Position numbers and translations under genes: made by a program. A DNA stretch of 64,000 nt from Candidatus Omnitrophota bacterium (GTDB taxonomy: Bacteria; Omnitrophota; Gorgyraeia; Zapsychrales; Fredricksoniimonadaceae). Within the stretch, counting starts at the first letter, position 1, and every line of letters begins with the position of its first letter. The notes under the pieces are model-generated. The model searched no databases. It was not told the origin of the DNA and worked only from the letters and a program-made list of their open reading frames with translations. The stretch spans positions 139,364 through 203,363 of the forward strand of contig CAIOPG010000017.1 of the NCBI GenBank assembly GCA_903860135.1, in the 5' to 3' direction. Positions 11,354-57,306 of the stretch are shown in pieces.

Positions 11354-11830
11354 TCAGACGGTGTCCAGCCATTGTTCAAACAAAAGGACGCGATCCTGCT
11401 GGGAAGGATCAGCTAGAAACGGAACAACATCACGCGCCAGGGACTTCATGTCGACGCTCTGCGCTCGCCGCCTCAGGGCATCAATCATGGAATCCTTGTC
11501 GCTGATACCAAGCCTGTCCTTTAAATAAACATAATCAGGAACAGCCTTGCCCATCAGGAACACAATATCAAAAAAATCCCTCCCTTTTTCTTTCCTGCGA
11601 TTCAAGCAGGCAAAAATCTTCTGCGCCGTCAATAACGCCGACGGCACAACATGGATATACCGGAATATACCAAAACGGTTGATCAGGAATTTTTCAGGAG
11701 TATACGCGTAATGTTGCGGCTCAGCGTCGATCTGGATCAGGATACGCTCTTGCTGATGCCCTGACATCCCCTGCTCGAACAACAACCCCGGAAAGCTGAT
11801 GTGGCAATGATACGCCCCCTTGAAATTCAA
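11354..11830 (-). pseudogene. C-terminal fragment of an AbiEii/nucleotidyltransferase-type toxin (no N-terminal catalytic half)
   Basis: The 158-aa ORF resembles the C-terminal region of AbiEii-family NTase toxins (segment ...TAQKIFACLNRRKEKGRDFFDIVFL...). It overlaps the upstream AbiEi-like ORF by 110 nt in a different frame. The two ORFs together (~360 aa) are too short for an intact AbiEi+AbiEii pair. Confidence 0.35.
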
Positions 11831-13013: not shown

Positions 13014-13706
<693 letters not shown>

Positions 13707-16966: not shown

Positions 16967-17049
16967 ACCAGAAGTCATACACCTTGGGAAGCGTCAAATC
17001 ACGGGCATGAGGAAATGATCATCGCGGATCCGATGACGCAGGTGTGATC
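16967..17049. repeat. ~83-nt intergenic repeat, copy B (paired with 12907-12989)
   Basis: See copy A. It begins at the stop codon of the 1030-aa modular protein and contains AAGGTGT-ATGACTTCTGGT (an SD plus ATG-ThrSerGly) on the minus strand. Confidence 0.7.
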
Positions 17050-20000
17050 GTCAAGAGGACTGGCTTGAAACCGGCAAACGAAGGCAAAAGGAAATCTTCA
17101 TTACCGACAACTTTTTCATCCGATGCCGCCTGGCTCCGGTCAACCGCCACCTCCATCCCGCTGGCATCAATACCACCGTATTTCTTCTGATCAGCAAGAC
17201 CCTTAGCATCTTTTTTCTGAAGCCTGTACACATGATATTCCCATGGCTGCAACGTCCATGTTCGTTCTTTGACCATATCCCTGAAAGACACTGGCGGCGC
17301 TTCGGGATGAAGAATATCGCTGAATTCCATCTGATCCTTTTCATCCTCGGTAAGATAATCCCACTGAAAATGCTGATTAATATAGGGAATTGTCTTCTCC
17401 GTACCGCTGTGATTCACGACAACAAGGCCAACCTCATAAGAACCGTCCTCATTCTGAATGCGGCGCTGATCAACCAAAACCCCTTCGGGAAGATCACGCT
17501 GATCACCAACCAAAGCCGGCCGCATTGTTCCGTTACACCATAATTTATCTGCCATCAAAGAAAATAAATTCTTATAAAATGATGTGAGTTCAGGGTATTC
17601 CAGCCACGTATCTTCTGCATCGGGTTGATTCAGTGCATCGGGCTTACCGTTGGTCTCGGCATGACGCCCCGTTTCAAACCCCTCATTGATCAGCGTGCCC
17701 CCGGAGAAATAGGCCATCAGCGCCGCATTGGCGGCCTTGGCACGTGCTATAAAACTTTTTAATACGCGCTCACTCAACAAAGCATTAATTTCATCTGGAT
17801 CATCACTAAAATCCTTGTGCAAGACAGCCTCAATCTCAGGGATGTCAGCATTAAGATAAAGATCTTGATCGTTTTCTCTTACATATCCCTGCTCGATCAA
17901 CGACCTCACAATAATGCCTCCCCTCAATGGCGCAGCCTCCGTAACAGCCTGCCAGCTGAAAGCCGTTGTTTCACGTATCTCATCAATGGTCCTTTTCCCA
18001 CGAATATCATCATGATTTTCGAGAAACTTTATAATACCCTGCATGTAAAAATCAGCCCCCTCAGACAACAACGAACCAAACATTCTGGAACTACGACGCA
18101 AAGATACAAAATGCTCCAAAGAAAGATGTTTGGCATAAACAAAATCAATCCCCAGCTTCAAAGCATATTCTTCATTCTCATACATTTCTGCAATAAAAAC
18201 AGAATCCGGATACTTTTTTTTCATTTCTCTAAAAAGATTCCTCCAAAAATCATCATTCATATCGCCATACTTTAATTCCCCCCAACTATTATTGAACCGG
18301 CCTGCCAAAGCCAGATGGAACATGTCAAAACGAATACCTCCACCGTTCGTCAACCGCATAATACGATCAATTAACGCCTCAATATATACCTGAGTTTCCG
18401 GCTTGGAAAAGTCAAAAGCCACCGTGTCCAGCCATGCCGCATAATAAGGATCCTTTTGATGCGCATAAATCCAGGATTTTCCATTTTTATCTTTATGCCA
18501 AAAGAAAAACCTGACAAATTCACTTTCCTGAAGATTCTTCCGAATCCCCCTGAAATAACTGCTCAAATTGGCGATCTCCGCTTCTGGTATTCTGCCTTCT
18601 TCAACCCGTATGAACAGCTCCGGATGTTCCTCCATCAATTTTCCCATGACACCGGCATGATTGGTCACAAGATCAACACACACTTTTATCCCATACTTGG
18701 CCGCACGTTCGACAAGCCTTTTAAAAGCCGCCTCGCCACCCAGGCTTGCCGCCACCGTATAATCATCGAGGCTATACGCGGAGGCCAGGCGCTGCTTTTG
18801 CCCAAAGATCTTAGCTGCCCATCCCTGATAATATCGGCTAAACTTGGATCGCTCCCATATGCCCATGGTCCACAACTCATTGATCCCCTTGTCTGCCAAC
18901 CCTTGAAGGTATTCATCCGTGATTTTGTCAAAACGCTTCGTAGGCCCGGCATGCCACAAATATATAACGGGGGCGTGCGTAAGCTTGACCGGCGCCACTT
19001 CCGCCGCCAGATCAACAACAGCCACGTCGGGAACTGCCGGCAATGGACCTGACACCACCGAAAAAACACCCGGTGTTAACATGCCAAAATCATTTACCCC
19101 GCCGGAAAAATACTTGCGCGGCAAAAGTTCGCCGGACACGGCATCCTTCTCTTCGCGGATGAGATTGACAGCACCTTTCTTATACGCGTCCACATACGTA
19201 TCATAAATCTTGCGCGGTTCCGCCTTGTCGGCGATAGCAACGCCCGCGAGCCTTGCCTTGTCCAGATAAGACCGGCGCCAGGGCGCGGCCCCTTTTTTCT
19301 GACGGTACCATTTGGCCAGGATCAGGGCCTGAAATATCTGCCGTAACCGGGCAAAGCGAGCGCCTTCATTAACCTCCCGCTCGATCACGGGCACAATGAC
19401 CTCGCGCATCACCTGAACAACAGCCTCCTGCCCCGCATTCAGGGCATGACTTCCCTCTGCCTGCGCGCGCGCCAGATAATCCTGTTCAAGCATGACCTTG
19501 AGGCGCGCCTCAACAACCACCCCGCTCAAGCCCTTCTCAACAACCCGCGCCCGCGCCGGAACGATCCACACCTTGTGAAAATCATCGGTCAATGCCCCCA
19601 CATTCACATCACGGTCTGAAACCGCGCGCAACCGTGCCCAAAACACACGGCCACTGGCGCTGTCAGGATGCAATAACGATGCCGTGAACTGTTTAAGGAT
19701 ATAATCCTGGGCCAGGAGATCGCGCCCCAGCTCGGTCATCCCCAGGGTTTTTGTCACGATGCGGTCGGATTCATACGGAGAAAGATTGACCCAGAATTCT
19801 TTTTCAGGAACGGCCAAGCCTGTCAGGAAATACCGCGCCTGCCGCGCAACATTTTCCCGCAAGTCAGCCTCCGGCGTTTGCCCCTTGTCGAGCATGAACA
19901 AAAGCTTGCGCGGCTGTTGCGGGTCGATCCGCAGTCCCTTGACCAGCGCCGGCGTATAGACACCCCCCGTCACAACCAGGGTGCCCGGCAACGGAAGATC

Positions 20001-20111
20001 TCTCAACGCCTGCGCCTCAGCCAAGATCGGTGTCAGTAAAAACACGACCGCCGTCAGTAAAGAACAAACGGCCTTGAAAGGAAATTTATGATGAAATAAA
20101 GGCACCATCAC
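17019..20111 (-). CDS. Secreted modular protein 1: conserved N-cap domain + GH13 alpha-amylase-family catalytic domain + conserved C-tail
   Basis: 1030 aa with a signal peptide (…LTPILAEAQA). The N-domain is shared with three paralogues (blocks WVNLSPYESDRI, GRDLLAQDYILKQFTASL, KVWIVP, LKVMLEQDY, PRKYFSGGV). GH13 conserved regions are present: DLVTNH, GIRFDMFH, IAEMYE, FLENHD. The C-tail is ...GGIDASG...AGFKPVLLTITP. Confidence 0.8.
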   Translation of the reverse strand: MMVPLFHHKFPFKAVCSLLTAVVFLLTPILAEAQALRDLPLPGTLVVTGGVYTPALVKGLRIDPQQPRKLLFMLDKGQTPEADLRENVARQARYFLTGLAVPEKEFWVNLSPYESDRIVTKTLGMTELGRDLLAQDYILKQFTASLLHPDSASGRVFWARLRAVSDRDVNVGALTDDFHKVWIVPARARVVEKGLSGVVVEARLKVMLEQDYLARAQAEGSHALNAGQEAVVQVMREVIVPVIEREVNEGARFARLRQIFQALILAKWYRQKKGAAPWRRSYLDKARLAGVAIADKAEPRKIYDTYVDAYKKGAVNLIREEKDAVSGELLPRKYFSGGVNDFGMLTPGVFSVVSGPLPAVPDVAVVDLAAEVAPVKLTHAPVIYLWHAGPTKRFDKITDEYLQGLADKGINELWTMGIWERSKFSRYYQGWAAKIFGQKQRLASAYSLDDYTVAASLGGEAAFKRLVERAAKYGIKVCVDLVTNHAGVMGKLMEEHPELFIRVEEGRIPEAEIANLSSYFRGIRKNLQESEFVRFFFWHKDKNGKSWIYAHQKDPYYAAWLDTVAFDFSKPETQVYIEALIDRIMRLTNGGGIRFDMFHLALAGRFNNSWGELKYGDMNDDFWRNLFREMKKKYPDSVFIAEMYENEEYALKLGIDFVYAKHLSLEHFVSLRRSSRMFGSLLSEGADFYMQGIIKFLENHDDIRGKRTIDEIRETTAFSWQAVTEAAPLRGGIIVRSLIEQGYVRENDQDLYLNADIPEIEAVLHKDFSDDPDEINALLSERVLKSFIARAKAANAALMAYFSGGTLINEGFETGRHAETNGKPDALNQPDAEDTWLEYPELTSFYKNLFSLMADKLWCNGTMRPALVGDQRDLPEGVLVDQRRIQNEDGSYEVGLVVVNHSGTEKTIPYINQHFQWDYLTEDEKDQMEFSDILHPEAPPVSFRDMVKERTWTLQPWEYHVYRLQKKDAKGLADQKKYGGIDASGMEVAVDRSQAASDEKVVGNEDFLLPSFAGFKPVLLTITPASSDPR

Positions 20112-20150: not shown

Positions 20151-23100
20151 TTATCGCACCAGCGCCGCCACGGACACCGGCACGATCTTCCCGATGCGCG
20201 GCTCAAAACCGCTCACGTCCAACTGCGCCCAAGGCTTGGCCGATACCGGTAACGGCACACCGTGGCTATCACGGCGGATCCTGAAATCCATGGTCGCTGT
20301 ATCAAGGGTGACACCACCGGGCGATGCCGCGGCGTCGGCCGACGTGCCCTCCAACGTATCGCCAGCAAACTTTCCAGTCTTTGGGGCGATCTCGTCAGCA
20401 AACGCCTCGCTGATGGTCGCCACCAGATCCGCCAGCTGGCCCTTGTTGATCAGCGGTAACGTGCCGTTCAATAATCCCGCCACAAGCTCAGGACGGGACA
20501 TATGGCTTTGATACTCAGCAAAAAGCCTGTCCCACAAAGGCCGGTATCTTTCTGTATAATAAACCCTGAAATCCCATAACCCGGTCTTCTTGAGCCTGGA
20601 CACGGTATCTGCATCCAGCTCACTTTCCAATAAATTGAAATTTACCAACGCGCCGAGAAAAGGCATGATCTTCTTTTCTCTCATGTCTTCATCAAGAACA
20701 ACCCGCGTGTAATCGATCTGCGTAGCGTGAAAAATCTTATCCAAACGGCTGGCAAGAGTATCCTGTGTTACAGGCGCCGCAGCCGATGCTTCCGGTATCA
20801 ATTGCCCAACGGCAGCGATCAGGCTTTGTGCCTGCTGAGGGACGGCAAGATAGCCTCCGTCACGTGCCGCATCACTCCTCGATAGAAAGATATAATCCTT
20901 GCCGTCGCTGTGTCGGTAAAGCACCGACAACATCCCCTGGCGCAGGTCAGCCTTGCGCACCCGGCCTTCACCAACCATGGTCGTCAGCAGACGGGCCATT
21001 TTCTGTTCCTGGGGACTGCCCTGGGCCAAAACAGCCAGCGCCAATTGTGCAGCCGGCGACGCCCTGCGCACCGGCTCACGCCGCTCGATCCAGTTGTCCG
21101 GAGCACGATGAGAATCCTTGATCCATTGCTTCAGACGCGACACAACACCCGCAAGATAATCCCTTGTCTGCTGGTAAGACCAATTCGTGCTCAACGAAGT
21201 ACCCGGCACATTATGCTGACTCTTGATGCCCACATCCCCGGATTCACCGTCAACGACATCCGCATAGTTAACCACCGTGGTATTGGCCATGGTGTTCATC
21301 AAGACCTTGTTCATGATCTCCGCGATATTGTCCTCTGTCAACTCCTCCGTAACCCCCAGCTCGCGTAAAATCTGAGCCAGCACCTTTTTACTGTTAGTCG
21401 AAAGGTTGCTGTCCCAAAGCCTTGTCGACGGATTGTCGTGGGGGGCAAGAAAAGCCATTTGGCTGGGCAACAAATTAGCCGGATGGTACGGATCACCGTT
21501 GAGCCGGTTTCTCCAGGAAGGATCCAGCGACATATACTGCAACACACTCATGCCTGGCAAAGGCAACTTGCGGAAGAACGCATCCGTCCGGGGTGTGCCT
21601 TCGCCGAGATTCTCGGCTATAAACACATCGGTCAGATCGACCTCGGGGAAAAGCTTCGCCAATTTGTCAAAGATGAGATACGGATCCAGGCCATCGTGAA
21701 TATCTCTCAAAAAATATCCCTGATCGGACGGCTTGTCCCTGGGGATAACAAAAGGATCCGCATACCCAAAGACATAATCCAGCCGAAACCGCGCCCCGGG
21801 CGACAAACGGAGGGCGTAAACGAACCTTTTAACATAAAAGTTGATCCCTTCTGCCTTGCTCAAATCCGGCGGTACATGGCCAAAGATGTCATTGCGTACG
21901 CCGGTACGCAGCGAGAACGTCCTATTTTCTGTATCATAAATGAAAACATCCGGATTCCCCCAGCAATCCGCGCTGTTAAACCGCGGATATATATTCAAAT
22001 CTTCGATAATCGGGACATGATGCTCTTGCGCAAAAGTATTCAGAGCCTCCGCCTGCTGACGTACAAGGAACTGAAAGAAATGGAAGAACCCAATTTTCTG
22101 TTGGTTCGCTATTTCAAAATCTTTCACACCAGAGGCATTAATATTAGATAGCTCATCCGGCCAGCGCGTCAAGGCCTGCTCAAATACAAGCTTGATCTTT
22201 GTCCAATTTTCATCTCCCAGGATGTTCTGCAATGCACCAAGCTTATCCCAAGATACTTTCAGCTGAACTTCGTTCAACTTGAGGGAATCAGCCATATTCA
22301 GATAGATCAGTTTTTCTGAAATATATTTCCAAATATCAGTAACACCCTCAACCTCGAGTCCGGCATGCTCAACCGAATACTGGTCAACAAGCCCCAGCCA
22401 GCCGTATTGGCTATACGTCTGGCTCAATACCTGAAACAAAGAATACGATCGCAACCAGTCCATACGTATGTCAACGCCGTCAACCGAGATAAGGCCTTCG
22501 GTATTTTCTTTGACGAATGTGTCAAACGCCTGCTGAAAAAGCGCCACCGGCCGACCGTTCGTCGGCCATACCCCGGTATTTTGCGCCTCCAGAAAATTTG
22601 CATACGCCTGACGGGCCAGTTGTTCCTTGTATCCCAGCCGATCAAAAGCAATCCGCAAAGAATGAATATCTTTAGGAACAATGACATCGTGTTGTTCCTG
22701 GGTTATAAACCCTTGCGCGACCAAGTCTTGCGGGCTAAGCAAGTTTCCGTTGAGCCCAAAGAGCCCATTACCATAATATGGATCGCCGTTATTATTCGTC
22801 CCCAGCAACGGTTCGCGTAGCCAGCCGGCACCTGCTTTTTCCAACCCCAGAATGAGGGCTCTCGCCTCCGGCCCAAGATCGCCCCCTCCGTACTCTCGCT
22901 GATCCGTCGATGCTACTGAGGGCAATGACGCAACCGGAACAAAAATCACCGTTCCGGGTACCTGCGCCTTAACGGCCGCCGCCGTCGCCTCGTTCGTCAT
23001 CGCCTTCGCCCCCGGCATCATCCTCGCCACCGATGCCGAAGGTTTTCTTTTTTCGGAGTTATCCGTCTGCGGCGCCTCCGCAAAATCCACCGCCACCGAT

Positions 23101-24254
23101 GCGCTCGCATCAGACCGTTGCGCAACACGCCCCGCAAAATCCTTTTTCTCCTTCTCCGTCGCCGGAGTCACAGCATTTACCGGCACCACTCCGCCCGACA
23201 CGTATTTCCGGGGCACCGACGCGCGACCCTGCGGATCGACCTCGTCTTTGATGTAGTTATAAACCCCGGCCTTGAAAGATGCCAGATACCGGTCATACAG
23301 CTTCTGGCGGATGGCGGGATCATCGACTTTGATCCCGGCGGCCTTGTTGCGGTCGACGTAGATCTTGCCGAGCACGCTGTCGCGCAGGGTTTTCTTGTAC
23401 CATACCGCGAGAATCATGGAATTGTAGATCTGGCGCAGGGTGGCAAAATTCTTGCCACTATTCACTTCCTTCTCGATGGCGGGGATCAGGATTTCGCGCA
23501 TGACCTGCTTGGCGAGCTCATCTTCCGGACGGGGCACAGACCCGTCCCTACCCACGCCGGCAACCTGCGCCGATTTATAATCTGATTCGAGCATGACTTT
23601 CAGGTGCTGTTCGACCACAAAGACCCTGTTGCCCTTCTCGTAGACAACCGCCTTGTCGGGCATGATCCAGACCTTGTTGAAGGTATCCAGCGGCAGGTCA
23701 GTCACCCCGGACTGTTCCTTCGCCTGGCTGTAAACCCTCTGCCAGAACGCCTTGCCCAGGTCATCTTCAGGATAGAATAATGATGCCGACAACTGCTTGA
23801 GGATATAGTCCTGCGCCAGCATATCGCGGCCCATGTCCGTCTGGCCAAGGCCTTCGCCGGTGATGCGATCCTTTTCATACGGCGACAGGTTCACCCACTG
23901 CTCTTTCTCGGGAACAGTTAAAGATGCCATGAAATATTTGACTAATTTCTCGGATTCCTGACGAAACGCATCACTGTCAAACGCAAGGCCGGAATCACCC
24001 TTATCAATGATAAAACTGAACTGAAGTGGCTTCTCAGGATGAACTTCCATGCCGATGGCCAAAGGAGGCACGTACGCCGGGGAAGGATGCACCATGACAC
24101 CCACCGGCGGCAAGCGTAAAGCCGCCAAGCCATCCGCCTGCGCCCAGGCCCTGTTGACAGGCATAAGGGTGTTGACCAGAAAGACAGCGGCTACAAAAGC
24201 CGCCACAGCACAACGCAGCCTAGAATGACGGACACAACAAAGCATCGAGGGCAT
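20151..24254 (-). CDS. Secreted modular protein 2: conserved N-cap domain + GH77 4-alpha-glucanotransferase (amylomaltase-like) domain + conserved C-tail
   Basis: 1367 aa with a signal peptide (…VNRAWAQA) and the same N-domain blocks (WVNLSPYEKDRI, GRDMLAQDYILKQLSASL, KVWIMP, LKVMLESDY, PRKYVSGGV). GH77 signatures are FFHFFQFLVRQQAEALNTFAQEHHVPIIEDL, RLDYVFGY, GMSVLQYMSLD, APHDNPSTRLW. The C-tail is ...GGVTLD...SGFEPRIGKIVPVSVAALV. Confidence 0.8.
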   Translation of the reverse strand: MPSMLCCVRHSRLRCAVAAFVAAVFLVNTLMPVNRAWAQADGLAALRLPPVGVMVHPSPAYVPPLAIGMEVHPEKPLQFSFIIDKGDSGLAFDSDAFRQESEKLVKYFMASLTVPEKEQWVNLSPYEKDRITGEGLGQTDMGRDMLAQDYILKQLSASLFYPEDDLGKAFWQRVYSQAKEQSGVTDLPLDTFNKVWIMPDKAVVYEKGNRVFVVEQHLKVMLESDYKSAQVAGVGRDGSVPRPEDELAKQVMREILIPAIEKEVNSGKNFATLRQIYNSMILAVWYKKTLRDSVLGKIYVDRNKAAGIKVDDPAIRQKLYDRYLASFKAGVYNYIKDEVDPQGRASVPRKYVSGGVVPVNAVTPATEKEKKDFAGRVAQRSDASASVAVDFAEAPQTDNSEKRKPSASVARMMPGAKAMTNEATAAAVKAQVPGTVIFVPVASLPSVASTDQREYGGGDLGPEARALILGLEKAGAGWLREPLLGTNNNGDPYYGNGLFGLNGNLLSPQDLVAQGFITQEQHDVIVPKDIHSLRIAFDRLGYKEQLARQAYANFLEAQNTGVWPTNGRPVALFQQAFDTFVKENTEGLISVDGVDIRMDWLRSYSLFQVLSQTYSQYGWLGLVDQYSVEHAGLEVEGVTDIWKYISEKLIYLNMADSLKLNEVQLKVSWDKLGALQNILGDENWTKIKLVFEQALTRWPDELSNINASGVKDFEIANQQKIGFFHFFQFLVRQQAEALNTFAQEHHVPIIEDLNIYPRFNSADCWGNPDVFIYDTENRTFSLRTGVRNDIFGHVPPDLSKAEGINFYVKRFVYALRLSPGARFRLDYVFGYADPFVIPRDKPSDQGYFLRDIHDGLDPYLIFDKLAKLFPEVDLTDVFIAENLGEGTPRTDAFFRKLPLPGMSVLQYMSLDPSWRNRLNGDPYHPANLLPSQMAFLAPHDNPSTRLWDSNLSTNSKKVLAQILRELGVTEELTEDNIAEIMNKVLMNTMANTTVVNYADVVDGESGDVGIKSQHNVPGTSLSTNWSYQQTRDYLAGVVSRLKQWIKDSHRAPDNWIERREPVRRASPAAQLALAVLAQGSPQEQKMARLLTTMVGEGRVRKADLRQGMLSVLYRHSDGKDYIFLSRSDAARDGGYLAVPQQAQSLIAAVGQLIPEASAAAPVTQDTLASRLDKIFHATQIDYTRVVLDEDMREKKIMPFLGALVNFNLLESELDADTVSRLKKTGLWDFRVYYTERYRPLWDRLFAEYQSHMSRPELVAGLLNGTLPLINKGQLADLVATISEAFADEIAPKTGKFAGDTLEGTSADAAASPGGVTLDTATMDFRIRRDSHGVPLPVSAKPWAQLDVSGFEPRIGKIVPVSVAALVR

Positions 24255-50140: not shown

Positions 50141-51513
50141 ACCACCTTTCCTGGGTCAACTGCGTTTATATCATCAGCTGTATCCTGTTCGCGTTCGGTT
50201 TAAAACTCCTCGGCTCTCCTGAAACCGCGCGCCGCGGCAACTGGATGTCGGCCCTGGGCATGCTGCTCGCCGTGATCGCGACACTCACCGCGCGCGAGAT
50301 CATTTCTTTCCAGTGGATATTGATCGGCGGGGTGATCGGCGCTTCGTTGGGAACGCTCGTGGCCTTGCGCGCCAGCATGACCCAAATGCCTGAAATGGTG
50401 GCCCTCCTGCACGGCTTTGGCGCGCTCGCCAGTGTATTTGTCGACTGGAGCGCGTATCACAACCATACGCCGGACAATGCGGTGGTCATCACGGCGATCT
50501 ACCTGTCGATCCTCATCGGCGGGGTGACTTTTACCGGCAGTCTGGTTGCCTGGGGCAAACTCAGCGAACGCTTGCCCGGAAAGCCGCTCCTTTTTCCCGG
50601 CCAGCAGATGATCAGCATCCTTACAGCCGCGGCCATTGCACTTCTGGCGATCCCTTTTTTCCTGACTCCTGCGGCTTACCCGGTATTCCTGTGGATCCTG
50701 GGGTTGTCACTCATCCTGGGTGTTCTCTTGGTGATTCCCATCGGCGGGGCGGATATGCCGGTGGTGATCTCGGTCCTTAACAGCTATTCCGGGCTTGTGG
50801 CCTGCACCACGGGCTTTGTCATCAACAATGTCCTGTTGATCGTCGTTGGCGCACTCGTCGGGGCCAACGGGATCATCCTCAGTTACATCATGTGCAAGGC
50901 CATGAACCGCTCGCTCAACAATGTGCTTTTCGGCGCCTTTGCCCCGCGTGTCAAGAAAGCCGCCGGCACGGCCAAGGGCGAGGTCAAACCCATCAGTCCC
51001 CAGGATGCTTTCCTTATCCTTGAATCCGCGCGTTCGGTCGTTATTGCCCCTGGTTATGGCATGGCGGTTGCCCAGGCGCAACACGCCGTGCGTGAACTCG
51101 GAGAGCTCCTGGAAAAGAATGGTGCTGATGTGAAATACGCCATTCATCCGGTCGCCGGGCGCATGCCCGGCCACATGAACGTCCTTTTGGCCGAGGCCAA
51201 TGTCCCTTATGATCAGCTCGTTGAAATGGAACACATCAATCCGCTGATGGACAATGTTGATGTCGCCATCGTGATCGGCGCCAATGACACCGTCAACCCG
51301 GCGGCCATCCACGACAAGACATCCCCCATCTACGGCATGCCCATCATTGAAACGTTCCGGGCCAAGACCGTCTTTGTGATCAAACGCTCGATGGCCTCAG
51401 GCTTTGCGGGCATCGAGAATGAATTATTCCTCTATGACAACACCCGCATGATCTTTGGCGACGCCAAAGATGTGGCGCAGAAACTTGTGGCGGAGTTCAA
51501 GGCGGGGAACTGA
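50137..51513 (+). CDS. pntB: NAD(P) transhydrogenase beta subunit
   Basis: 458 aa, a membrane domain plus a C-terminal NADP(H)-binding dIII; 4-nt overlap with pntAB. Confidence 0.9.
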   Translation: MNHLSWVNCVYIISCILFAFGLKLLGSPETARRGNWMSALGMLLAVIATLTAREIISFQWILIGGVIGASLGTLVALRASMTQMPEMVALLHGFGALASVFVDWSAYHNHTPDNAVVITAIYLSILIGGVTFTGSLVAWGKLSERLPGKPLLFPGQQMISILTAAAIALLAIPFFLTPAAYPVFLWILGLSLILGVLLVIPIGGADMPVVISVLNSYSGLVACTTGFVINNVLLIVVGALVGANGIILSYIMCKAMNRSLNNVLFGAFAPRVKKAAGTAKGEVKPISPQDAFLILESARSVVIAPGYGMAVAQAQHAVRELGELLEKNGADVKYAIHPVAGRMPGHMNVLLAEANVPYDQLVEMEHINPLMDNVDVAIVIGANDTVNPAAIHDKTSPIYGMPIIETFRAKTVFVIKRSMASGFAGIENELFLYDNTRMIFGDAKDVAQKLVAEFKAGN

Positions 51514-54500
51514 CCGGCAGGGCCGCAGCAACTCCATTTTGCCCGATCAGCGCGGCAAGATTGGTCACCGGCTGCATATCCATGATCACAGGATCCAGGC
51601 CGGGAATAGACCCGTCAGGCAGCGGACCGCGATAGGCCGGAAATCGGATACGGACATCATCCCCGCCGGTGCGCAACGCGGTATTACGCGGATTAAGGTC
51701 AATACCGCCTTTATCAGGTGACTGTAGCGAACTTTCATTCGAAACCGACCGGGCAGAATAATCCTTTTCTGTCCCCTGGATCAAACCAAGTTCACGTCCC
51801 AGTTCAATGATATGCTCCGCCATATAGATCTTCCGAAGATAATGCCGCTGTGTCGCTGAATGTTCCGGAGAAATCCACACGCTTAGATCATCATAGCCAT
51901 CTTCATCCATCCCAACAAAACCCTGACTCACATAATGCTTACCTAAGGCATAAGCCATATGTGTTATGCCGCCTTCAACCGTTCCAACAATATCGGCCGC
52001 TTCCATTAAATAAAGTATGCCTCGTTCATGCGGCTGTGGCACAGGCGATACCATGACAAAACTCAAGTATTGCTCAGGAATAAAATGTAAGATAGATTTT
52101 TCATCTTCAGAACGGTTAAATCCCAACCACCCTATACGATTCATATTAGGCATAAGAATGACAAAGAATCCCGAATCAATCAACTGTTGAACTTGCTTAG
52201 CACCGTAACGATACCCGTATTCCGACAAACCTTTTGTTTCTAACTCTCCACCAAACAGATTCAAAAATACAACTGGTCTTCGTTCGATATTCTTATCGGT
52301 CAATGTGGCCAAGAGGCTTCTTTTGTAATGAGCCTCAGAACCTGAAACTGTCGTCATATAATGACCATCTACCACCCGGTTGTTACCGGCCCCGTATGAA
52401 ATACCAAGCCGATCCAAAAGATCAAACGCAGGCGCATATTGATTACCACTATTAATTGGGTCCAACACATCATTCCTCACATGGATAACATCGTACTCTT
52501 TGTGTCCATAGGCGTAGGGAGAATGGATATAAATAGCGGGGGGTTGTCTCTTGAGAACATCCTGGAACGCCTGTTCCGCCTTCTGTGAAAGAATTTTTCC
52601 ATCAGCATCATAACGGTGAATAATCATGTCAGATTTCTCAGCGTCAAACAAAGGAGGAAATGTTAGCTGTATTCGCGGATGATTATATATCTCCGTCCGC
52701 TTCGTATAAATGTATATCTCGAGTTCCGGGTTATATTCCAACAGCGCTTGAACGAGTGATCCATTGCGTATGATCTCATCTCCTATACCTTCATCCAAAT
52801 TATGGACAAACAGTACCTTTTTCTTGCCGATCTTAAGAATTGCCTCAACTTTCTTATGAACATCCACCTTCTCTTTTTCACCGACATCCGGTTCTTTGGC
52901 ATCAATCAAAGGGATAAGTTTTTCAAGGTTTTGTCGAAAATCATCTAAAGATATATCCTTATATATGTTATTTCTGATCAGCAAATCCCAAAACCTGTCA
53001 ACCCGTCCATGAACACGTGAACTCATCTCAGCAAAGATCTTCAACTGCTCAAGCGATAGTGACGCCCCATGAAACCCAATCAATCCTCCTAACTGATAAT
53101 AGATAAAGCTATGCGGCGAATGATCCAAATTAAGCAGGATCGTCTTGATTACAGGCCAATATTCAAAGAAACTATCGCCGTAATGCTCCTTTAACCGATT
53201 AAAACCACTGTTCATTAAAAACCCCATTTTGGTCGCATTCGACTCCTTAAAAAGAAGCTTAAAAATGTCTCCTATCTCATCAATAAACATGTCACCAAAA
53301 TCTTTCTTAACTTCAAGTAAGAGCTTATAATATCTGCCAGGACTCTTGCTCGCCGACAGAATCCCAAATTCTTTCAAATCATCCCAATATCGCGGCAATT
53401 GATCACCAAACACATCAACGGCAATCTCCCATATTCCCCAAAAGTCGCGACCCGGATCACTTTCGGCCGCCATGGCCCAATACATAGCTTCCAATTCATC
53501 CAAGATGCGGCGCACGTCTTCACGGGAATGAATTAAATACGGTTTTAATGTTTTTAATGAAGCTAATGCCCACCCAGCACCATTATTACGTTCGCGGGCG
53601 AACCCTATCGAGCTTTGAATCAGCTTGAGCCCCAATTCAGGGAAATACTCAAGGTATTCCTCATGGGAATAACCATCAAACGGCATCCCGCCATTGGTCG
53701 TAAAGAATGGCTCTCCCCATTGGAGTACGGTAGCAACAGTATCAACCACCTCATAACCGTAACGATTTAAAATATCTTCTATCAACTGTTTTTTATCATC
53801 CGGTAGTTCTTTATATAACGCTTGGGCATAAAATTCATTCTTAAAAGCGGTCTCAGTTCTGTTATTAACACCCCGTTTAGCCCGTAACGCCAATATTATT
53901 TCCTCTGCCGTCATAGATACCGGAACGCCTCCCAAGCCATCGATAAAGCGGTACTTTTTCATGGCAGAATCATTTTTCTTCTTTCCATCTTTCCTGAGCG
54001 ATCCTGACTTCTTACCCGCGATAACGGATGCCTGAACCGCAATCTTGGTAGCTCTTGCCGCCTTCGCCGCGACATCCCCCGGCGTTTGTGATTCATCGAT
54101 CCGCCCATACTTCTCCACCACACCACCGGAAAAATATTTGCGCGGGATCACGGTTTGGGAGACATCATCGTAATCTTCTTTGATAAAGTTATAAACGCCC
54201 CGTTTAAACGCCTCCAGGTACTGTTGATAAATCTTCTGGTTGATCTGCTTATCCTGGGTATCAACTCCTGCGGTCCTGTTGTGATCGATGTAAATATCCT
54301 GCAGGACACTACCAGCCACATGGCGCTTGTACCAGGTGGCGAGGATCACGGCGTTGGATATCTGGCGCAGACGCGCAAACGACTTGCCGGTATTGACCTC
54401 CCGCTCGATCTCGGGAATGATAACCTCACGGATAATTTCTTTGGCGATATCGCTCAGCGGCGTCAGATCCTCCGCGCGTGTCTCCCCCAGCCCGTGCCGG

Positions 54501-55213
54501 GTGTGGCCCTGATTGGCCGCCAACGCCAGATAATCATTTTCCAGCATCACCTTATGGTGACTCCCGGTCACAAAGACCGATGTCCCGCTGACATAGACCG
54601 ACGCCCTGTCCGGGATGATCCAGACCTTGTGAAAAGTATCCATCGGGATCTCGTTGGTCCCGTAACGCTGCCGCGTTTTATCCCTCACCCGTTTCCAGAA
54701 CGCACGCCCCAAATCTTTCTCGGGATACATCAGGCTGGCTGTCAATTGCTTGAGAAGATAATCCTGCGCCAAAAGGTCCCGCCCTATTTCGGTTGCGCCA
54801 AACCCCGGCGGAATGATGCGGTCTTTTTCGTAAGGGCTGAGATTAACCCACATCTCATCTTCGGGCACCGTCATGGCCGCAAAGAAATATTTGATCAGGT
54901 GGTTGGATTCATCCCGAAGACTTTCTTCTTTGAGATTATCATCCCCTGGATGCACCATGAAATCAAACCGGAACGGATCTTCAGGATACACGGTCATCCC
55001 GATCATCAGGGCAGGATCATAGGCAGGGGTTAAACCAACCATCGCGCCAGGCGGCGGTAAGCCAAGGAGCGTTCCACCCGCCGGCCCAACCTGTTGCGCC
55101 TGCGCCTGGGATAAACCCAATGGAAGAACCGACTGACCGACAAAGGCGATCAAAACCGCCAAAAGCAGTGTTTTCTTAAGGAAGAAATATTTTTTAAAAT
55201 GAAAATGATGCAT
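51497..55213 (-). CDS. Secreted modular protein 3: conserved N-cap domain + ~500-aa unassigned helical region + GT9-like glycosyltransferase domain + conserved C-tail
   Basis: 1238 aa with a signal peptide (…LSQAQAQQ) and the N-domain blocks (WVNLSPYEKDRI, GRDLLAQDYLLKQLTASL, KVWIIP, KVMLENDY, PRKYFSGGV). The GT9-like features are ...KVLFVHNLDEGIGDEII... and ...MEAADIVGTVEGGITHMAYALGKHYV.... The C-tail is ...GGIDLNP...DPVIMDMQPVTNLAALIGQ. Confidence 0.8.
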   Translation of the reverse strand: MHHFHFKKYFFLKKTLLLAVLIAFVGQSVLPLGLSQAQAQQVGPAGGTLLGLPPPGAMVGLTPAYDPALMIGMTVYPEDPFRFDFMVHPGDDNLKEESLRDESNHLIKYFFAAMTVPEDEMWVNLSPYEKDRIIPPGFGATEIGRDLLAQDYLLKQLTASLMYPEKDLGRAFWKRVRDKTRQRYGTNEIPMDTFHKVWIIPDRASVYVSGTSVFVTGSHHKVMLENDYLALAANQGHTRHGLGETRAEDLTPLSDIAKEIIREVIIPEIEREVNTGKSFARLRQISNAVILATWYKRHVAGSVLQDIYIDHNRTAGVDTQDKQINQKIYQQYLEAFKRGVYNFIKEDYDDVSQTVIPRKYFSGGVVEKYGRIDESQTPGDVAAKAARATKIAVQASVIAGKKSGSLRKDGKKKNDSAMKKYRFIDGLGGVPVSMTAEEIILALRAKRGVNNRTETAFKNEFYAQALYKELPDDKKQLIEDILNRYGYEVVDTVATVLQWGEPFFTTNGGMPFDGYSHEEYLEYFPELGLKLIQSSIGFARERNNGAGWALASLKTLKPYLIHSREDVRRILDELEAMYWAMAAESDPGRDFWGIWEIAVDVFGDQLPRYWDDLKEFGILSASKSPGRYYKLLLEVKKDFGDMFIDEIGDIFKLLFKESNATKMGFLMNSGFNRLKEHYGDSFFEYWPVIKTILLNLDHSPHSFIYYQLGGLIGFHGASLSLEQLKIFAEMSSRVHGRVDRFWDLLIRNNIYKDISLDDFRQNLEKLIPLIDAKEPDVGEKEKVDVHKKVEAILKIGKKKVLFVHNLDEGIGDEIIRNGSLVQALLEYNPELEIYIYTKRTEIYNHPRIQLTFPPLFDAEKSDMIIHRYDADGKILSQKAEQAFQDVLKRQPPAIYIHSPYAYGHKEYDVIHVRNDVLDPINSGNQYAPAFDLLDRLGISYGAGNNRVVDGHYMTTVSGSEAHYKRSLLATLTDKNIERRPVVFLNLFGGELETKGLSEYGYRYGAKQVQQLIDSGFFVILMPNMNRIGWLGFNRSEDEKSILHFIPEQYLSFVMVSPVPQPHERGILYLMEAADIVGTVEGGITHMAYALGKHYVSQGFVGMDEDGYDDLSVWISPEHSATQRHYLRKIYMAEHIIELGRELGLIQGTEKDYSARSVSNESSLQSPDKGGIDLNPRNTALRTGGDDVRIRFPAYRGPLPDGSIPGLDPVIMDMQPVTNLAALIGQNGVAAALPVSSPP

Positions 55214-55215
55214 CG

Positions 55216-57306
55216 CTAACCGCCTCGTGCCGTAACAGGTGCGATGCCCAGAAAGTTGGGCAGATCATTCATGGGCTGAATGTCGATGATAACCGGCGCC
55301 ACCCCGGCTGAGCCCCGATATTTCTCCAGCATCGCCGGGTCAAAATGAAAGAATGTCCCTGCATCAGAAGCATCCACCTGCATGACCTGAGCGACAGGGT
55401 TCAAATCAATACCGCCTGAATCATTTGACGACTTGTCCGCCATCTTCCGATTAATCTTATCCAGTTCACCTGGGACCTTGTTCTTTAAATCTTCAGGTCC
55501 ATCAACCAATACTGTCTGCATACCAACCTTCTGGGCAGGTACTGTATCTTTTTGACTTGCTCCGATCGACACAAAAGCTTCAGCTGGGAAAGGAACTTTC
55601 GCTTGAATCTTCCGATAAAAATCAAGGGCAGGCTTCCCAACCCCCATATTCTCCTGGGTAAATATAAAATCAAAAATCTCCTCAAGCCCAAGCGCCTTTA
55701 AGACACGCGCCACATGAGCGTCGCTGGCATTAGACCCAAGCACAAGATAATACGACTGTTTCAATCCTTTCAATAAAGCAATCATGTCTTGTTCCGGTTT
55801 CAACAAACCTTCCACGTCAATCTCATCCACCTTGGCGTTAAACGCAGAACTGTTCAGGTTGAATGCCCGGACAACCCCGCTTAAAGATTGATTATTATTC
55901 TCATCAAAATAGGCGTTCTTCACTTCTTTTGCTGAATATTCAGCGGCCTTGGAAAGCTTGAGCAAAATCCGATATTTCCGACCCCACACCTTGCTTGAAT
56001 GATAAAGAGTATCCCCCAGATCAAAGATCAGCACTTTTACAGGCATCTTGCTGCGAGGTTCCAGGCTTGAATTGTCTTTAATAGAAGATGGTTTTTTCTC
56101 TTTAGGAATATTATTTACCCTGACACTCATCAAGACTTGCTTGCGCACAGGAAGCCCTGCCGCATCAAACGCATTGACCATACTCATATCACCAGGATAA
56201 ATATTAACACCCCCCGCAAAATACTTCCGGGGGATCGTTGCCTCGGTGGCGGGGTCGTATTCTTCGCGGATAAGGTTATACGCGCCTTTCTTGAATGACG
56301 CGACGTAGCGTGACCATATCTTTGCGGACTCTTTCGGGTCATCGATATTGACACCGGCGACTTTATTCTGGCCGACGTAGAAGCCGAGCGGGGATTGGTG
56401 GATCGCGCCCATGACTTTCTTTTTGTACCAGGCGGCCAGGATCAGGGAGTTGTAGACCTGCCGGAGCTGGGCGAAGTTTTGGCCTTCGTTGACTTCTTTT
56501 TCAAGGACAGGGAGGATGATGGTGCGGATGAGGGCTTGGGCAAGGTCTTCCCCCCGTCCATCCCCTTCCCACGAGGGGGAGGGTGACGTTGGAGACGCTG
56601 TATTATTCTTCGCGGCCAGATAATCGGATTCGAGCATGACCTTCAGGCGGGATTCGACCACGTAGGCGACGGCTTCTTCGGGGCGATGGTTGCCGGCAGG
56701 CTTGGGTTTTTCGTAAACCTTAGCCACAGCTGGAACGATCCAGACTTTATTGAACGTATCAATGGGGATATCGGTTGTCCCGAACTTCGCCTGGGCCTGT
56801 TTGTAGATCTCATCCCAGAACTTCTTGCCCAGGCTATCCTCAGGGTACATCAAACTGGCGGTGATCTGTTTCAACAGATAATCCTGCGCCAGAAGGTCGC
56901 GCCCCATTTCGGTCTGGCCAAAAGCTTCGGGCACAATGCGGTCTTTTTCATACGGGCTGAGATTCACCCAGAGGTCCTTTTCAGGCACCGTGAGCGCGGC
57001 GAGGAAATATTTTATCAGGCGAAGGGCATCATCCCCCGTCCCTTCCCCTTTATCCAGAATAAAATCAAACCGAAAAGGATCCCCCGCATAAACCTTGACG
57101 CCGGTAAGGGTGGTCGGATGAAAAACAGGGCTCAACCCCACCCTGGCTCCCGGCACCGGCAATCCCAACACCTCTTGTGCCGACACCTGCCCCAACGGAA
57201 ATGCCATGACATTCAACAAAAATGCCACCAGCATGACCCAGGGAACAATCCGCTGTCTCAGTGTTTTATTACGCTTTAAAGCCACATGATCTTCCCGATG
57301 GTTCAA
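55216..57306 (-). CDS. Secreted modular protein 4: conserved N-cap domain + HAD-superfamily phosphatase domain + conserved C-tail
   Basis: 696 aa with a signal peptide (…GQVSAQE) and the N-domain blocks (WVNLSPYEKDRI, GRDLLAQDYLLKQITASL, KVWIVP, LKVMLESDY, PRKYFAGGV). HAD motif I is FDLGDTL, with later GKP/D motifs. The C-tail is ...GGIDLNP...APVIIDIQPMNDLPNFLGI. Confidence 0.8.
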   Translation of the reverse strand: MNHREDHVALKRNKTLRQRIVPWVMLVAFLLNVMAFPLGQVSAQEVLGLPVPGARVGLSPVFHPTTLTGVKVYAGDPFRFDFILDKGEGTGDDALRLIKYFLAALTVPEKDLWVNLSPYEKDRIVPEAFGQTEMGRDLLAQDYLLKQITASLMYPEDSLGKKFWDEIYKQAQAKFGTTDIPIDTFNKVWIVPAVAKVYEKPKPAGNHRPEEAVAYVVESRLKVMLESDYLAAKNNTASPTSPSPSWEGDGRGEDLAQALIRTIILPVLEKEVNEGQNFAQLRQVYNSLILAAWYKKKVMGAIHQSPLGFYVGQNKVAGVNIDDPKESAKIWSRYVASFKKGAYNLIREEYDPATEATIPRKYFAGGVNIYPGDMSMVNAFDAAGLPVRKQVLMSVRVNNIPKEKKPSSIKDNSSLEPRSKMPVKVLIFDLGDTLYHSSKVWGRKYRILLKLSKAAEYSAKEVKNAYFDENNNQSLSGVVRAFNLNSSAFNAKVDEIDVEGLLKPEQDMIALLKGLKQSYYLVLGSNASDAHVARVLKALGLEEIFDFIFTQENMGVGKPALDFYRKIQAKVPFPAEAFVSIGASQKDTVPAQKVGMQTVLVDGPEDLKNKVPGELDKINRKMADKSSNDSGGIDLNPVAQVMQVDASDAGTFFHFDPAMLEKYRGSAGVAPVIIDIQPMNDLPNFLGIAPVTARGG

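What the first reader, a model, noticed from the sequence alone, without database searches (positions are those of the whole stretch)
51497..51720. Conserved ~60-aa C-terminal tail (GGIDLNP ... G-x-x-PVI-x-D-I-x-PV) on all four capped proteins, a candidate sorting or anchoring signal
The extreme C-termini align as follows. P4 reads SGGIDLNPVAQVMQVDASDAGTFFHFDPAMLEKYRGSAGVAPVIIDIQPMNDLPNFLGIAPV. P3 reads KGGIDLNPRNTALRTGGDDVRIRFPAYRGPLPDGSIPGLDPVIMDMQPVTNLAALIGQ. P1 reads YGGIDASGMEVAVDRSQ...FLLPSFAGFKPVLLTITPAS. P2 reads PGGVTLDTATMDFRIRRDSHGVPLPVSAKPWAQLDVSGFEPRIGKIVPVSVAALV. The tail coordinates are 51497-51720, 55216-55430, 17019-17200 and 20151-20330. There is no C-terminal TM helix plus basic cluster as in PEP-CTERM or other exosortase/archaeosortase signals, and no LPXTG. 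A T9SS CTD is not excluded by the sequence itself, but the lineage does not look Bacteroidota. A dedicated C-terminal recognition peptide of a new type is plausible.
Basis: seen in the sequence. Interest (0 to 1): 0.7.

Follow-up and report, generated by a model that had tools for sequence, protein, structure and literature searches.

The report
Omnitrophota C-terminal "GGIDL" tail module
The roughly 60-residue tail is real: it is the C-terminal half of a very large, undescribed Omnitrophota-specific frame (signal peptide, 340-residue cap, interchangeable enzyme, GGIDL tail) on exported proteins, and its function is still unknown.

Summary
All four minus-strand proteins (17019-20111, 20151-24254, 51497-55213, 55216-57306) end in a related tail. 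A profile built only from outside sequences scores them at p = 1.9e-4, 4.3e-6, 2.8e-13 and 3.5e-25.

The tail belongs to a huge family. There are 4,604 cluster representatives at E<=1e-3, and in the best 150 the match lies 0-12 residues from the C-terminus. Named genome hits are all Candidatus Omnitrophota MAGs, with many copies per genome.

The tail is not a free-standing tag. 103 of 115 cap-bearing relatives carry it. Tail proteins without a cap look like fragments. Each full protein has a Sec signal peptide, a cap, a variable passenger (HAD, GH13, GH77, kinase, GNAT, radical SAM and others) and the tail. GGxDL/DxAM-like motifs sit at both passenger junctions.

Best reading (about 0.45): a partner-dependent docking or sorting element of a two-part export frame. 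Rivals: an intramolecular clasp with the cap, or a processed pro-segment.

The parts
51497..51709 (-). GGIDL tail of protein A (KGGIDLNPRNTALRTGGDDVRIRF...GLDPVIMDMQPVTNLAALIG..., through the stop codon). This is the region the finding points to.
   Evidence: External tail HMM p = 2.8e-13.
51710..54121 (-). Passenger region of protein A (about 800 aa, no Pfam or NCBIfam match). GC3 is 0.42, against 0.62 for its cap.
54122..55213 (-). Sec-type signal peptide (about 39 aa, ...SQAQA|QQ) plus the conserved cap domain of protein A, ending in PRKYFSGG.
55216..55416 (-). GGIDL tail of protein B (SGGIDLNPVAQVMQVDASDAGTFFHFDPAMLEKYRGSAGVAPVIIDIQPMNDLPNFLG...). This is the best-conserved tail in the window.
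   Evidence: External tail HMM p = 3.5e-25.
55417..56208 (-). Passenger of protein B: a HAD-family hydrolase domain.
   Evidence: (HAD_2 9.3e-16), and the fold matches.
56209..57306 (-). Signal peptide plus cap of protein B. The true start is probably the GTG at residue 8 of the ORF: a 90%-cluster member is 689 aa long, and the 672-aa database gene call removes the n-region.
   Evidence: In the AF2 model, about residues 30-280 have pLDDT near or above 90 apart from two short dips.
17019..17177 (-). Degenerate tail of protein C (YGGIDASGMEV...FAGFKPVLLTITPASSDPR).
   Evidence: External tail HMM p = 1.9e-4, core motif only.
17178..19097 (-). Passenger of protein C: a GH13 alpha-amylase-family catalytic domain.
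   Evidence: (PF00128, 9.8e-11).
19098..20111 (-). Signal peptide plus cap of protein C.
20151..20318 (-). Degenerate tail of protein D (PGGVTLDTATMDFRIRRDSHGVPL...SGFEPRIGKIVPVSVAALVR).
   Evidence: External tail HMM p = 4.3e-6.
20319..23189 (-). Passenger of protein D: a GH77 4-alpha-glucanotransferase domain plus unassigned sequence.
   Evidence: (PF02446, 8.3e-44).
23190..24254 (-). Signal peptide plus cap of protein D.

Best explanation
The tail is the C-terminal half of a two-part protein frame specific to the candidate phylum Omnitrophota. Each member has a cleavable Sec signal peptide and a strongly conserved cap of about 340 aa that starts at the predicted signal-peptidase site. Then come a short junction (PRKYFSGG-x-[D/N]-[L/F/M] followed by DxAM motifs), an interchangeable passenger, a second junction, and the tail of about 60 aa. 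Passengers in the window are HAD, GH13, GH77 and one unknown domain; elsewhere they include kinase, GNAT, methyltransferase, NUDIX, Zeta toxin, radical SAM and HEAT. The tail consensus is GGIDLTPANMNLQTQN..GIKFHLDPAMLQQLQNAPGFVPVIINIQPMxDLRxFLG, ending 0-12 residues before the stop.

Shown: the architecture, its size, its taxonomic restriction, the strict C-terminal position, purifying selection on the peptide, and the absence of any curated model.

Inferred: the tail has no stable fold of its own and acts as a docking element that becomes ordered on binding a common partner. That partner could be a sorting or anchoring machine, or the cap of the same or another molecule. After Sec export, cap and tail together would target, anchor or hand over the passenger, for example for surface display or delivery of a polymorphic enzyme or effector set. 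The passenger may be released at the GG/DxAM junction motifs.
For: - Family size and position. A tail profile finds 4,604 representatives (E<=1e-3) and 1,567 (E<=1e-10) among 1.84 billion. All of the best 150 matches lie 0-12 aa from the C-terminus of proteins 72-2,491 aa long.
- Taxonomy. The genome scan gave 233 confirmed hits. All named records among the best 80 are Candidatus Omnitrophota MAGs, several with 5-10 loci each. There were none in viral contigs.
- Coupling to the cap. 103/115 cap proteins end in the tail, and 56/84 tail ORFs in the genome loci carry the cap, most of the rest being cut by a locus or contig end.
- Export. N-termini have n-, h- and c-regions with an AxA site immediately before the conserved cap start.
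- Selection on the peptide. Within a genome the tails are about 70% identical in amino acids, but only 51-57% of codons are identical at conserved residues.
- Junction motifs. [DNES]xA[MQ] occurs within 70 aa after the cap in 80% of proteins (about 10% expected) and within 30 aa before the tail in 52% (about 4% expected).
- Passenger types. Many passengers are toxin- or effector-like and cofactor-dependent. They overlap the domain list of the Omnitrophota giant 'Archaeovorin' proteins (bioRxiv 10.1101/2023.11.21.568195).
Against: - No partner or machinery gene was identified. The window neighbours are housekeeping genes (dcw cluster, Suf, PntAB, H+-PPase). The only recurrent neighbours of 78 loci are generic multi-copy families.
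- No clear case was found of the tail on a complete, signal-peptide-bearing protein that lacks the cap. This is unlike known sorting tags.
- Export rests on reading the N-termini by eye and on a hydropathy scan, not on a dedicated predictor or experiment.
- Passengers such as radical SAM, kinase or GNAT domains are odd in a periplasm, unless they are delivered into another cell.
- The tails of the two upstream window proteins are degenerate while their caps are well conserved. A strict recognition signal might not tolerate that.
- Cleavage at the junctions is pure inference.
Confidence: 0.45

Rival explanations
1. Intramolecular clasp, or split domain. Cap and tail are two halves of one structural unit, and the passenger is a domain inserted into it. 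The tail strands pair with the post-cap linker and the cap in cis to tie the passenger's two ends together. The conserved function (anchoring, binding or catalysis) would then reside in the cap, and the tail would be structural rather than a signal.
For: - Cap and tail are almost always coupled.
- The cap ends in GG-x-[D/N]-[L/F/M], resembling the tail's GGIDL start. Position 5 is L/F/M in 79% of proteins.
- A profile of the post-cap linker aligns to the first half of the tail with hhalign P = 2.6e-4 and probability 42%. This suggests a duplicated junction around an insertion point.
- The PVIIDI segment is a beta-strand in the full-length AF2 model but not in the tail-only model.
- No passenger-less cap-tail protein and no clear tail-only protein was seen.
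Against: - In the full-length model the tail has lower confidence (pLDDT 38-65) than when predicted alone (74-83 for the same residues). AF2 therefore does not dock it on the cap. Coordinates and PAE were not available to check contacts.
- The tail is far more conserved (about 70-90% between paralogs) than a clasp on a 50-60% identical cap would need.
- Two window proteins keep well-conserved caps with degenerate tails.
- Some apparently complete cap proteins on long contigs lack the tail (P0159, P0254, P0264).
Confidence: 0.25
2. Processed pro-segment. Cap and tail are removed after export by a dedicated peptidase that cuts at the invariant Gly-Gly or the DxAM motifs flanking the passenger. 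The free enzyme or effector is thereby released. The tail would act as a propeptide, holding factor or cleavage-recognition element.
For: - Gly-Gly is invariant at both junctions (A5 columns G341 G342 and G607 G608).
- DxAM motifs are enriched about 8- to 12-fold at both junctions.
- C39 (double-glycine) and S8 peptidase domains are reported as recurrent in Omnitrophota giant proteins and were proposed to cut them into pieces (bioRxiv 10.1101/2023.11.21.568195).
Against: - There is no direct evidence of cleavage.
- Double-glycine leaders are N-terminal and are cut by cytoplasmic PCAT domains.
- A 340-aa cap with about 50 invariant residues is a costly propeptide.
- No peptidase gene lies next to the window genes.
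Confidence: 0.12
3. Recombination frame. Cap and tail are conserved mainly as DNA homology arms that let passenger cassettes be swapped among paralogs, so the tail has little protein-level function.
For: - Passengers have markedly lower GC3 than their own cap and tail. In the window the values are 0.42-0.47 against 0.62-0.69, with housekeeping genes at 0.68. In 47 Omnitrophota proteins the means are 0.37 against 0.46.
- Tandem arrays of family members occur (window pairs; L025, L026, L035, L036, L066).
- Passengers are extremely diverse between near-identical frames.
Against: - Tails within one genome differ at about half of the codons that encode identical residues, and overall nucleotide identity is only about 70%. 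That is too low for efficient homologous recombination and indicates selection on the peptide.
- The window tails are only 35-40% identical to each other.
Confidence: 0.05
4. A divergent member of a known C-terminal sorting or docking domain: a T9SS CTD, an exosortase, sortase or rhombosortase signal, a dockerin, or a T1SS/RTX signal.
For: Only general features fit: the strict C-terminal position, a length of about 60 aa, and presence on many signal-peptide-bearing paralogs.
Against: - No Pfam or NCBIfam model hits the tail in the window proteins or in consensus-like members at E<=0.01.
- The tail profile has no PDB sequence relative.
- Hydropathy scanning flags only 2 of 136 tails, both borderline, and there is no terminal basic cluster.
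- A Sec signal peptide argues against T1SS.
Confidence: 0.03

Closest known systems
T9SS C-terminal domain (Por_Secre_tail, TIGR04183 / PF18962) of Bacteroidota cargo proteins
   Same: It is a conserved C-terminal module of some tens of residues on many otherwise unrelated proteins that carry a Sec signal peptide, with many copies per genome and restriction to one lineage.
   Different: There is no sequence match. The tail is not predicted as an Ig-like beta-sandwich or any autonomous fold. It is found in Omnitrophota (PVC group). It is obligatorily paired with a 340-aa N-terminal cap, which T9SS cargo lacks.
Type I dockerin modules of cellulosomal enzymes
   Same: It is a C-terminal module of about 60-70 aa appended to diverse exported enzymes, including glycoside hydrolases. 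Dockerins act by docking to a common partner (cohesin), which is the mode of action inferred here.
   Different: The tail has no duplicated Ca-binding F-hand motif and no PF00404 hit. No cohesin-like partner has been identified. Dockerin enzymes have no common N-terminal cap.
Frames that bracket variable cargo between conserved termini: MARTX toxins, and RTX adhesins with an N-terminal retention module plus a C-terminal secretion signal; autotransporters more loosely
   Same: Conserved N- and C-terminal parts flank interchangeable central enzymatic or effector domains. Many passengers are toxin- or effector-like and cofactor-dependent.
   Different: There is no homology and there are no RTX or glycine-rich repeats. 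A Sec signal peptide is present, whereas T1SS substrates lack one. The tail is far too short to be a beta-barrel. Each protein carries one passenger unit rather than an array of effectors with an internal protease. This analogy comes from general knowledge of those systems and was not tested with tools here.
Exosortase, archaeosortase, sortase and rhombosortase sorting signals (PEP-CTERM, LPXTG, GlyGly-CTERM and others)
   Same: It sits at the extreme C-terminus, has a short invariant signature (GG-I-D-L), and occurs in large paralogous sets of exported proteins.
   Different: There is no TM helix and no basic cluster after the signature. No NCBIfam CTERM model matches. About 55 conserved residues follow the signature, rather than a generic hydrophobic anchor.
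Omnitrophota giant proteins ('Archaeovorins', bioRxiv 10.1101/2023.11.21.568195)
   Same: They come from the same phylum and are predicted to be membrane- or export-associated. Their domain repertoire overlaps strikingly with the passengers here (HEAT, HATPase_c, radical SAM, PPDK_N, NUDIX, HAD_2).
   Different: The proteins here are 0.6-2.5 kaa, single-passenger units. Neither that paper nor the 2026 complete-genome preprint mentions a cap or a GGIDL tail. I did not test whether giant proteins contain caps or tails.

Membership tests
T9SS C-terminal domain (Por_Secre_tail) | Match to the curated CTD profiles (TIGR04183 in NCBIfam, PF18962 in Pfam). | tested here: not met
   No hit at E<=0.01 for the four window proteins or for consensus-like family members.
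T9SS C-terminal domain (Por_Secre_tail) | An autonomous Ig-like beta-sandwich of about 70-100 aa. | tested here: not met
   [not shown]
T9SS C-terminal domain (Por_Secre_tail) | Co-occurrence with the PorU/PorV/SprA machinery in the same genome. | not testable with these tools
   Whole genomes could not be retrieved. The window holds no such genes.
Exosortase/sortase/rhombosortase-type sorting signals | A signature motif followed by a TM helix and a cluster of basic residues at the extreme C-terminus. | tested here: not met
   A Kyte-Doolittle scan flagged only 2 of 136 tails, both borderline. The sequences after FLG are short, polar and variable.
Exosortase/sortase/rhombosortase-type sorting signals | Match to an NCBIfam xxx-CTERM model. 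| tested here: not met
   Searches gave no hits covering the tail.
Dockerin | A duplicated Ca-binding loop-helix motif and a PF00404 match. | tested here: not met
   There is no Pfam hit, and the consensus lacks a DxNxDGxID-type repeat.
T1SS/RTX C-terminal secretion signal | A substrate without a Sec signal peptide, usually with GGxGxDxUx nonapeptide repeats upstream. | tested here: not met
   Classical Sec-type N-termini are present. No RTX or HemolysinCabind Pfam hits were found.
Omnitrophota cap-X-GGIDL-tail family (defined here) | A C-terminal match to the external tail profile within about 12 aa of the stop codon. | tested here: met
   All four window proteins match. The 17019 protein matches only marginally.
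Omnitrophota cap-X-GGIDL-tail family (defined here) | An N-terminal Sec-type signal peptide directly followed by the conserved cap, which ends in PRKY[FV]xGG. | tested here: met
   The cap HMM scores E 1e-192 to 1e-216 for all four proteins.

The most novel reading that the evidence does not exclude
Cap and GGIDL tail together form the address label of a previously unrecognised, phylum-wide protein sorting or delivery pathway in Omnitrophota. This pathway would handle dozens to hundreds of polymorphic exported enzymes and effectors per genome. Among them are glycogen-active enzymes, kinases, acetyltransferases, NUDIX, Zeta-toxin-like and radical-SAM domains that only make sense inside another cell. 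It would underlie the predatory or parasitic lifestyle proposed for these nanobacteria. The same module set would be an unfused counterpart of their giant 'Archaeovorin' proteins.
Probability: 0.3. Interest if true: 0.85.

Novelty: new variant of a known kind. Interest (0 to 1): 0.66.

Why it matters
Omnitrophota are a widespread, uncultivated phylum of ultra-small bacteria suspected to be predators or parasites. How they act on hosts is unknown.

This finding shows that a large share of their exported, functionally diverse proteins use one conserved frame that is absent from Pfam, NCBIfam, the PDB and the literature I could search. There are thousands of cluster representatives, many per genome, and four in this 64-kb window.

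That gives three practical openings:
- A simple sequence handle (tail HMM plus cap HMM) can list the candidate secretome or effectorome of any Omnitrophota genome.
- Two uncharacterised domains, one apparently of novel fold, become targets for structural work.
- A concrete hypothesis (a docking or sorting frame, possibly with junction cleavage) can be tested by metaproteomics and complex prediction.

If instead the tail is only a structural clasp, the result is still a large new domain family worth curating.

Tried and rejected
- The first word-indexed search with the two divergent window tails found only 9 short fragments. The exhaustive HMMER search was needed to see the family.
- P0003 looked like a stand-alone 135-aa tail protein. 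Its contig is a frameshift-ridden nanopore assembly, so the protein is a fragment.
- Pfam and NCBIfam scans of window proteins and of consensus-like members hit nothing on the cap or the tail.
- PDB sequence-profile searches with the tail and with the whole-protein alignment found nothing relevant.
- The afdb50 fold library was unavailable.
- I looked for partner genes among window neighbours and by clustering 588 neighbour ORFs of 78 loci. Only response regulators (11 loci) and a TPR/PMT-like membrane protein family (10 loci) recur. Both are generic multi-copy families.
- The gene-conversion or DNA-repeat explanation of tail conservation was rejected because of synonymous divergence.
- The viral-contig scan was negative.
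- Literature searches (the 'GGIDL' string, Omnitrophota with terminal domains, the Seymour 2023, West-Roberts 2023 and 2026 complete-genome papers) found no description of this tail or cap.
- I considered giant proteins as concatenated cap-X-tail units. Nothing supports this in the best 150 hits, where the full tail is always terminal and single.


Full report
**What is in the window**

Four minus-strand ORFs were examined:
- A: 51497-55213, 1,238 aa.
- B: 55216-57306, 696 aa.
- C: 17019-20111, 1,030 aa.
- D: 20151-24254, 1,367 aa.

They form two tandem pairs. A starts 2 nt after B's stop codon, and C starts 39 nt after D's.

Their middles differ:
- B: a HAD hydrolase.
- C: a GH13 alpha-amylase-family domain.
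- D: a GH77 4-alpha-glucanotransferase.
- A: nothing recognisable.

From the GG to the stop codon, the tails occupy 51497-51709, 55216-55416, 17019-17177 and 20151-20318.

**Is the similarity more than chance?**

Inside the window alone, only the A and B tails are clearly alike (BLASTP E 1.8e-7). D is weak and C is not detected.

Outside evidence settles the question. A profile of the tails, searched with HMMER against 1.84 billion cluster representatives, found 4,604 proteins at E<=1e-3 and 1,567 at E<=1e-10. In every one of the best 150, the match lies 0-12 residues from the C-terminus, in proteins of 72-2,491 aa.

The consensus is GGIDLTPANMNLQTQN-(variable)-GIKFHLDPAMLQQLQNAPGFVPVIINIQPMxDLRxFLG.

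An HMM built only from these external tails scores the window tails at per-sequence p = 3.5e-25 (B), 2.8e-13 (A), 4.3e-6 (D) and 1.9e-4 (C, core GF-x-PV-x-x-I-x-P only). No other cap or tail occurs in any frame of the window.

**Where the tail occurs**

A scan of one genome per GTDB species gave 233 confirmed loci. The best 80 all come from MAGs named Candidatus Omnitrophota or Omnitrophica, apart from two labelled only 'bacterium' and a set carrying the placeholder name 'uncultured Planctomycetales'. Several genomes contribute 5-10 loci each, and tandem arrays occur. Omnitrophota belong to the PVC group.

The closest named relatives of the window proteins are Omnitrophota hypothetical proteins (72% identity). 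The window itself is ordinary chromosome: the dcw cluster, Suf, PntAB, H+-PPase, SerRS, TruB, RbfA and acetolactate synthase, on a 219-kb contig. Viral contigs hold no tail.

**The tail is not a free-standing tag**

Searching with the whole of protein B returned more than 3,200 cap-bearing proteins. Of the 115 examined, 103 end in the tail. Those without it include proteins annotated as partial or sitting on short contigs, though a few lie on long contigs and appear complete.

In the genome loci, 56 of 84 tail-bearing reading frames contain the cap. Most of the others run off a contig or locus end.

Tail proteins of at least 450 aa without a cap have no signal peptide and start with internal-looking sequence. 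One exception has a prepilin-like N-terminus.

The N-termini of full-length members are classical Sec signal peptides. They have a basic n-region, a hydrophobic h-region of about 12-16 residues, and a Pro/Gly then AxA c-region. The conserved cap sequence ([DE]F[RH]LPAPGVMVHLSP...) begins right at the predicted cleavage site.

The unit is therefore signal peptide, cap, passenger and tail.

Passengers are extremely diverse. They include HAD, HATPase_c, GNAT, NAD-epimerase, several methyltransferases, NUDIX, GDSL, CheR, PPDK, Zeta toxin, protein kinase, HTH, HEAT, radical SAM with B12-binding domain, and GDP-galactose-phosphorylase-like domains. About three quarters have no Pfam match.

**Properties of the tail**

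No Pfam-A or NCBIfam model covers the tail (or the cap), either in the window proteins or in consensus-like members. This includes the T9SS CTD, dockerin and all xxx-CTERM sorting models.

A tail profile has no relative among PDB sequences.

There is no TM helix and no basic cluster.

Within single genomes, tails are about 70% identical in protein. Only 51-57% of codons are identical at conserved residues. The conservation therefore reflects selection on the peptide, not recent gene conversion.

Together these features fit a segment that becomes ordered on binding something. I could not inspect coordinates or PAE, so contacts with the cap remain untested.

**Junction anatomy**

Gly-Gly is invariant at the end of the cap and at the start of the tail.

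The residues after the cap's GG resemble GGIDL. Position 5 is L, F or M in 79% of proteins, and position 4 is D, N or E in 47%.

[DNES]xA[MQ] motifs (mostly DxAM, also present as DPAM inside the tail) are enriched 8- to 12-fold in the 70 residues after the cap and in the 30 residues before the tail.

A profile of the post-cap linker aligns to the first half of the tail with hhalign P = 2.6e-4 and probability 42%. This is suggestive but not conclusive.

The passenger thus appears to be bracketed by two related junction elements. That fits either a domain insertion with a duplicated junction or paired recognition or cleavage sites.

**The cap**

**Mechanism**

Shown:
- A phylum-restricted, very large family of proteins with Sec-type leaders.
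- A two-part conserved frame around interchangeable passengers.
- A strictly terminal tail kept by selection on the peptide, with no predicted autonomous fold and no curated relative.

Inferred as the best explanation (about 0.45): the tail is a docking element recognised by a common partner. Together with the cap it sorts, anchors or hands over the exported passenger. Many passengers need cytoplasmic cofactors or are toxin-like. That is easiest to understand if they act in another cell. They also overlap the domain repertoire reported for the giant Archaeovorin proteins.

Rivals:
- A cis clasp completing a split cap-tail domain (about 0.25).
- A pro-segment removed at the GG/DxAM junctions (about 0.12).
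- DNA-level recombination arms (about 0.05, disfavoured).
- A divergent known sorting domain (about 0.03).

**Comparison with what is known**

The tail works most like a T9SS CTD or a dockerin: a C-terminal module shared by many exported enzymes. The whole frame loosely recalls MARTX or RTX-adhesin designs with conserved ends around variable cargo.

It fails every membership test I could run for T9SS CTD, exosortase- or sortase-type signals, dockerin and T1SS signals.

I found no description of it in the searchable literature. That covers the motif string, two Omnitrophota genomics papers and the giant-gene preprint.

**Verdict**

This is a real and previously uncurated C-terminal module. I rate it a new variant of the general kind 'shared C-terminal docking or sorting module'. 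It has the unusual property of obligate pairing with an equally uncharacterised N-terminal cap.

The idea of a stand-alone tag is not supported.

Interest: 0.66.

Noticed in passing
window 51710-54121, 55417-56208, 17178-19097 (passengers) versus their caps and tails; also 47 proteins in loci L002-L079: Passenger regions have much lower third-codon-position GC than the cap and tail of the same gene. In the window the values are 0.42-0.47 against 0.62-0.69, with housekeeping genes at about 0.68. Across 47 Omnitrophota family members the means are 0.37 against 0.46. Possible causes are different selective or recombination regimes, or a foreign origin of the passengers.
   Followed up: partly
family-wide; in the window just after the cap ends (e.g. 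56209 and 54122 downstream on the minus strand) and just before the tails: A short D-x-A-M motif recurs, often 2-3 times, in the linkers after the cap and before the tail. It is enriched 8- to 12-fold over the passenger background. It also occurs as DPAM inside the tail.
   Followed up: partly
cap C-terminus of all four window proteins (PRKYFSGGV...) and 141 relatives: The cap ends in an invariant GG followed by x-[D/N]-[L/F/M], echoing the tail's GGIDL start. The post-cap linker profile aligns weakly to the first half of the tail (hhalign P 2.6e-4).
   Followed up: partly
[not shown]
   Followed up: partly
relatives P0161, P0178, P0205, P0244, P0246, P0263 and others: The passenger Pfam repertoire (HEAT, HATPase_c, radical SAM, PPDK_N, NUDIX, HAD_2, GNAT) overlaps the domain list published for the Omnitrophota giant 'Archaeovorin' proteins. 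I did not test whether giant proteins contain caps or tails.
   Followed up: no
L025 6603-8198 (= P0098): One tail-bearing protein has a type IV prepilin-like N-terminus (…AFTIIELVIVISVLA…) instead of the cap. It is the only clear alternative N-terminal context seen.
   Followed up: no
tails of P0005, P0006, P0039, P0042, P0044: A recurrent insert of the type (K)MDSRFRGND(S/K) sits between the first (GGIDL..NLQT) and second (GIKFHLDPAM...) halves of the tail. This marks a tolerated insertion point and suggests that the tail has two sub-elements. P0011 also has an isolated internal first half.
   Followed up: no
tails of P0189, P0219, P0241, P0246, P0257, P0261 and others: A distinct tail subtype ends in ...TPVIIDI[QR]PMT[TM][TS]VP.FLGLKDD instead of ...IINIQPMxDLRxFLG. 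The window's own lineage uses a third flavour (FHFDPAxLEKYRG.AG.APVI).
   Followed up: no
loci L065 6068-7999 (minus strand) and 9 other loci; L059 15342-16127 and 10 other loci: Multi-pass membrane proteins with a TPR/PMT-like N-terminus (…FHFDD…) lie near tail genes in 10 of 78 loci, and response-regulator proteins in 11 of 78. Both are probably just abundant families in these genomes.
   Followed up: no
window 57235-57306 (5' end of protein B): The database gene call for B (P0154, 672 aa) starts at Met25 and removes the basic n-region of the signal peptide. A 689-aa member of the same 90% cluster indicates a GTG start at residue 8 of the ORF.
   Followed up: partly
window 11354-11830 (-) and 13014-13706 (-): A short ORF matches only the C-terminal half of the AbiEii toxin (type IV TA nucleotidyltransferase), so it is probably a fragment. 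A 230-aa ORF with a weak Lcl_C domain match lies in a lower-GC stretch (12-14 kb, GC 0.465).
   Followed up: no
L001 5848-10408: A nanopore-derived contig shows the same cap, GDPGP1-like passenger and tail gene broken into about 8 ORFs by frameshifts. Many short 'tail-only' database proteins are likely artefacts of this kind.
   Followed up: partly
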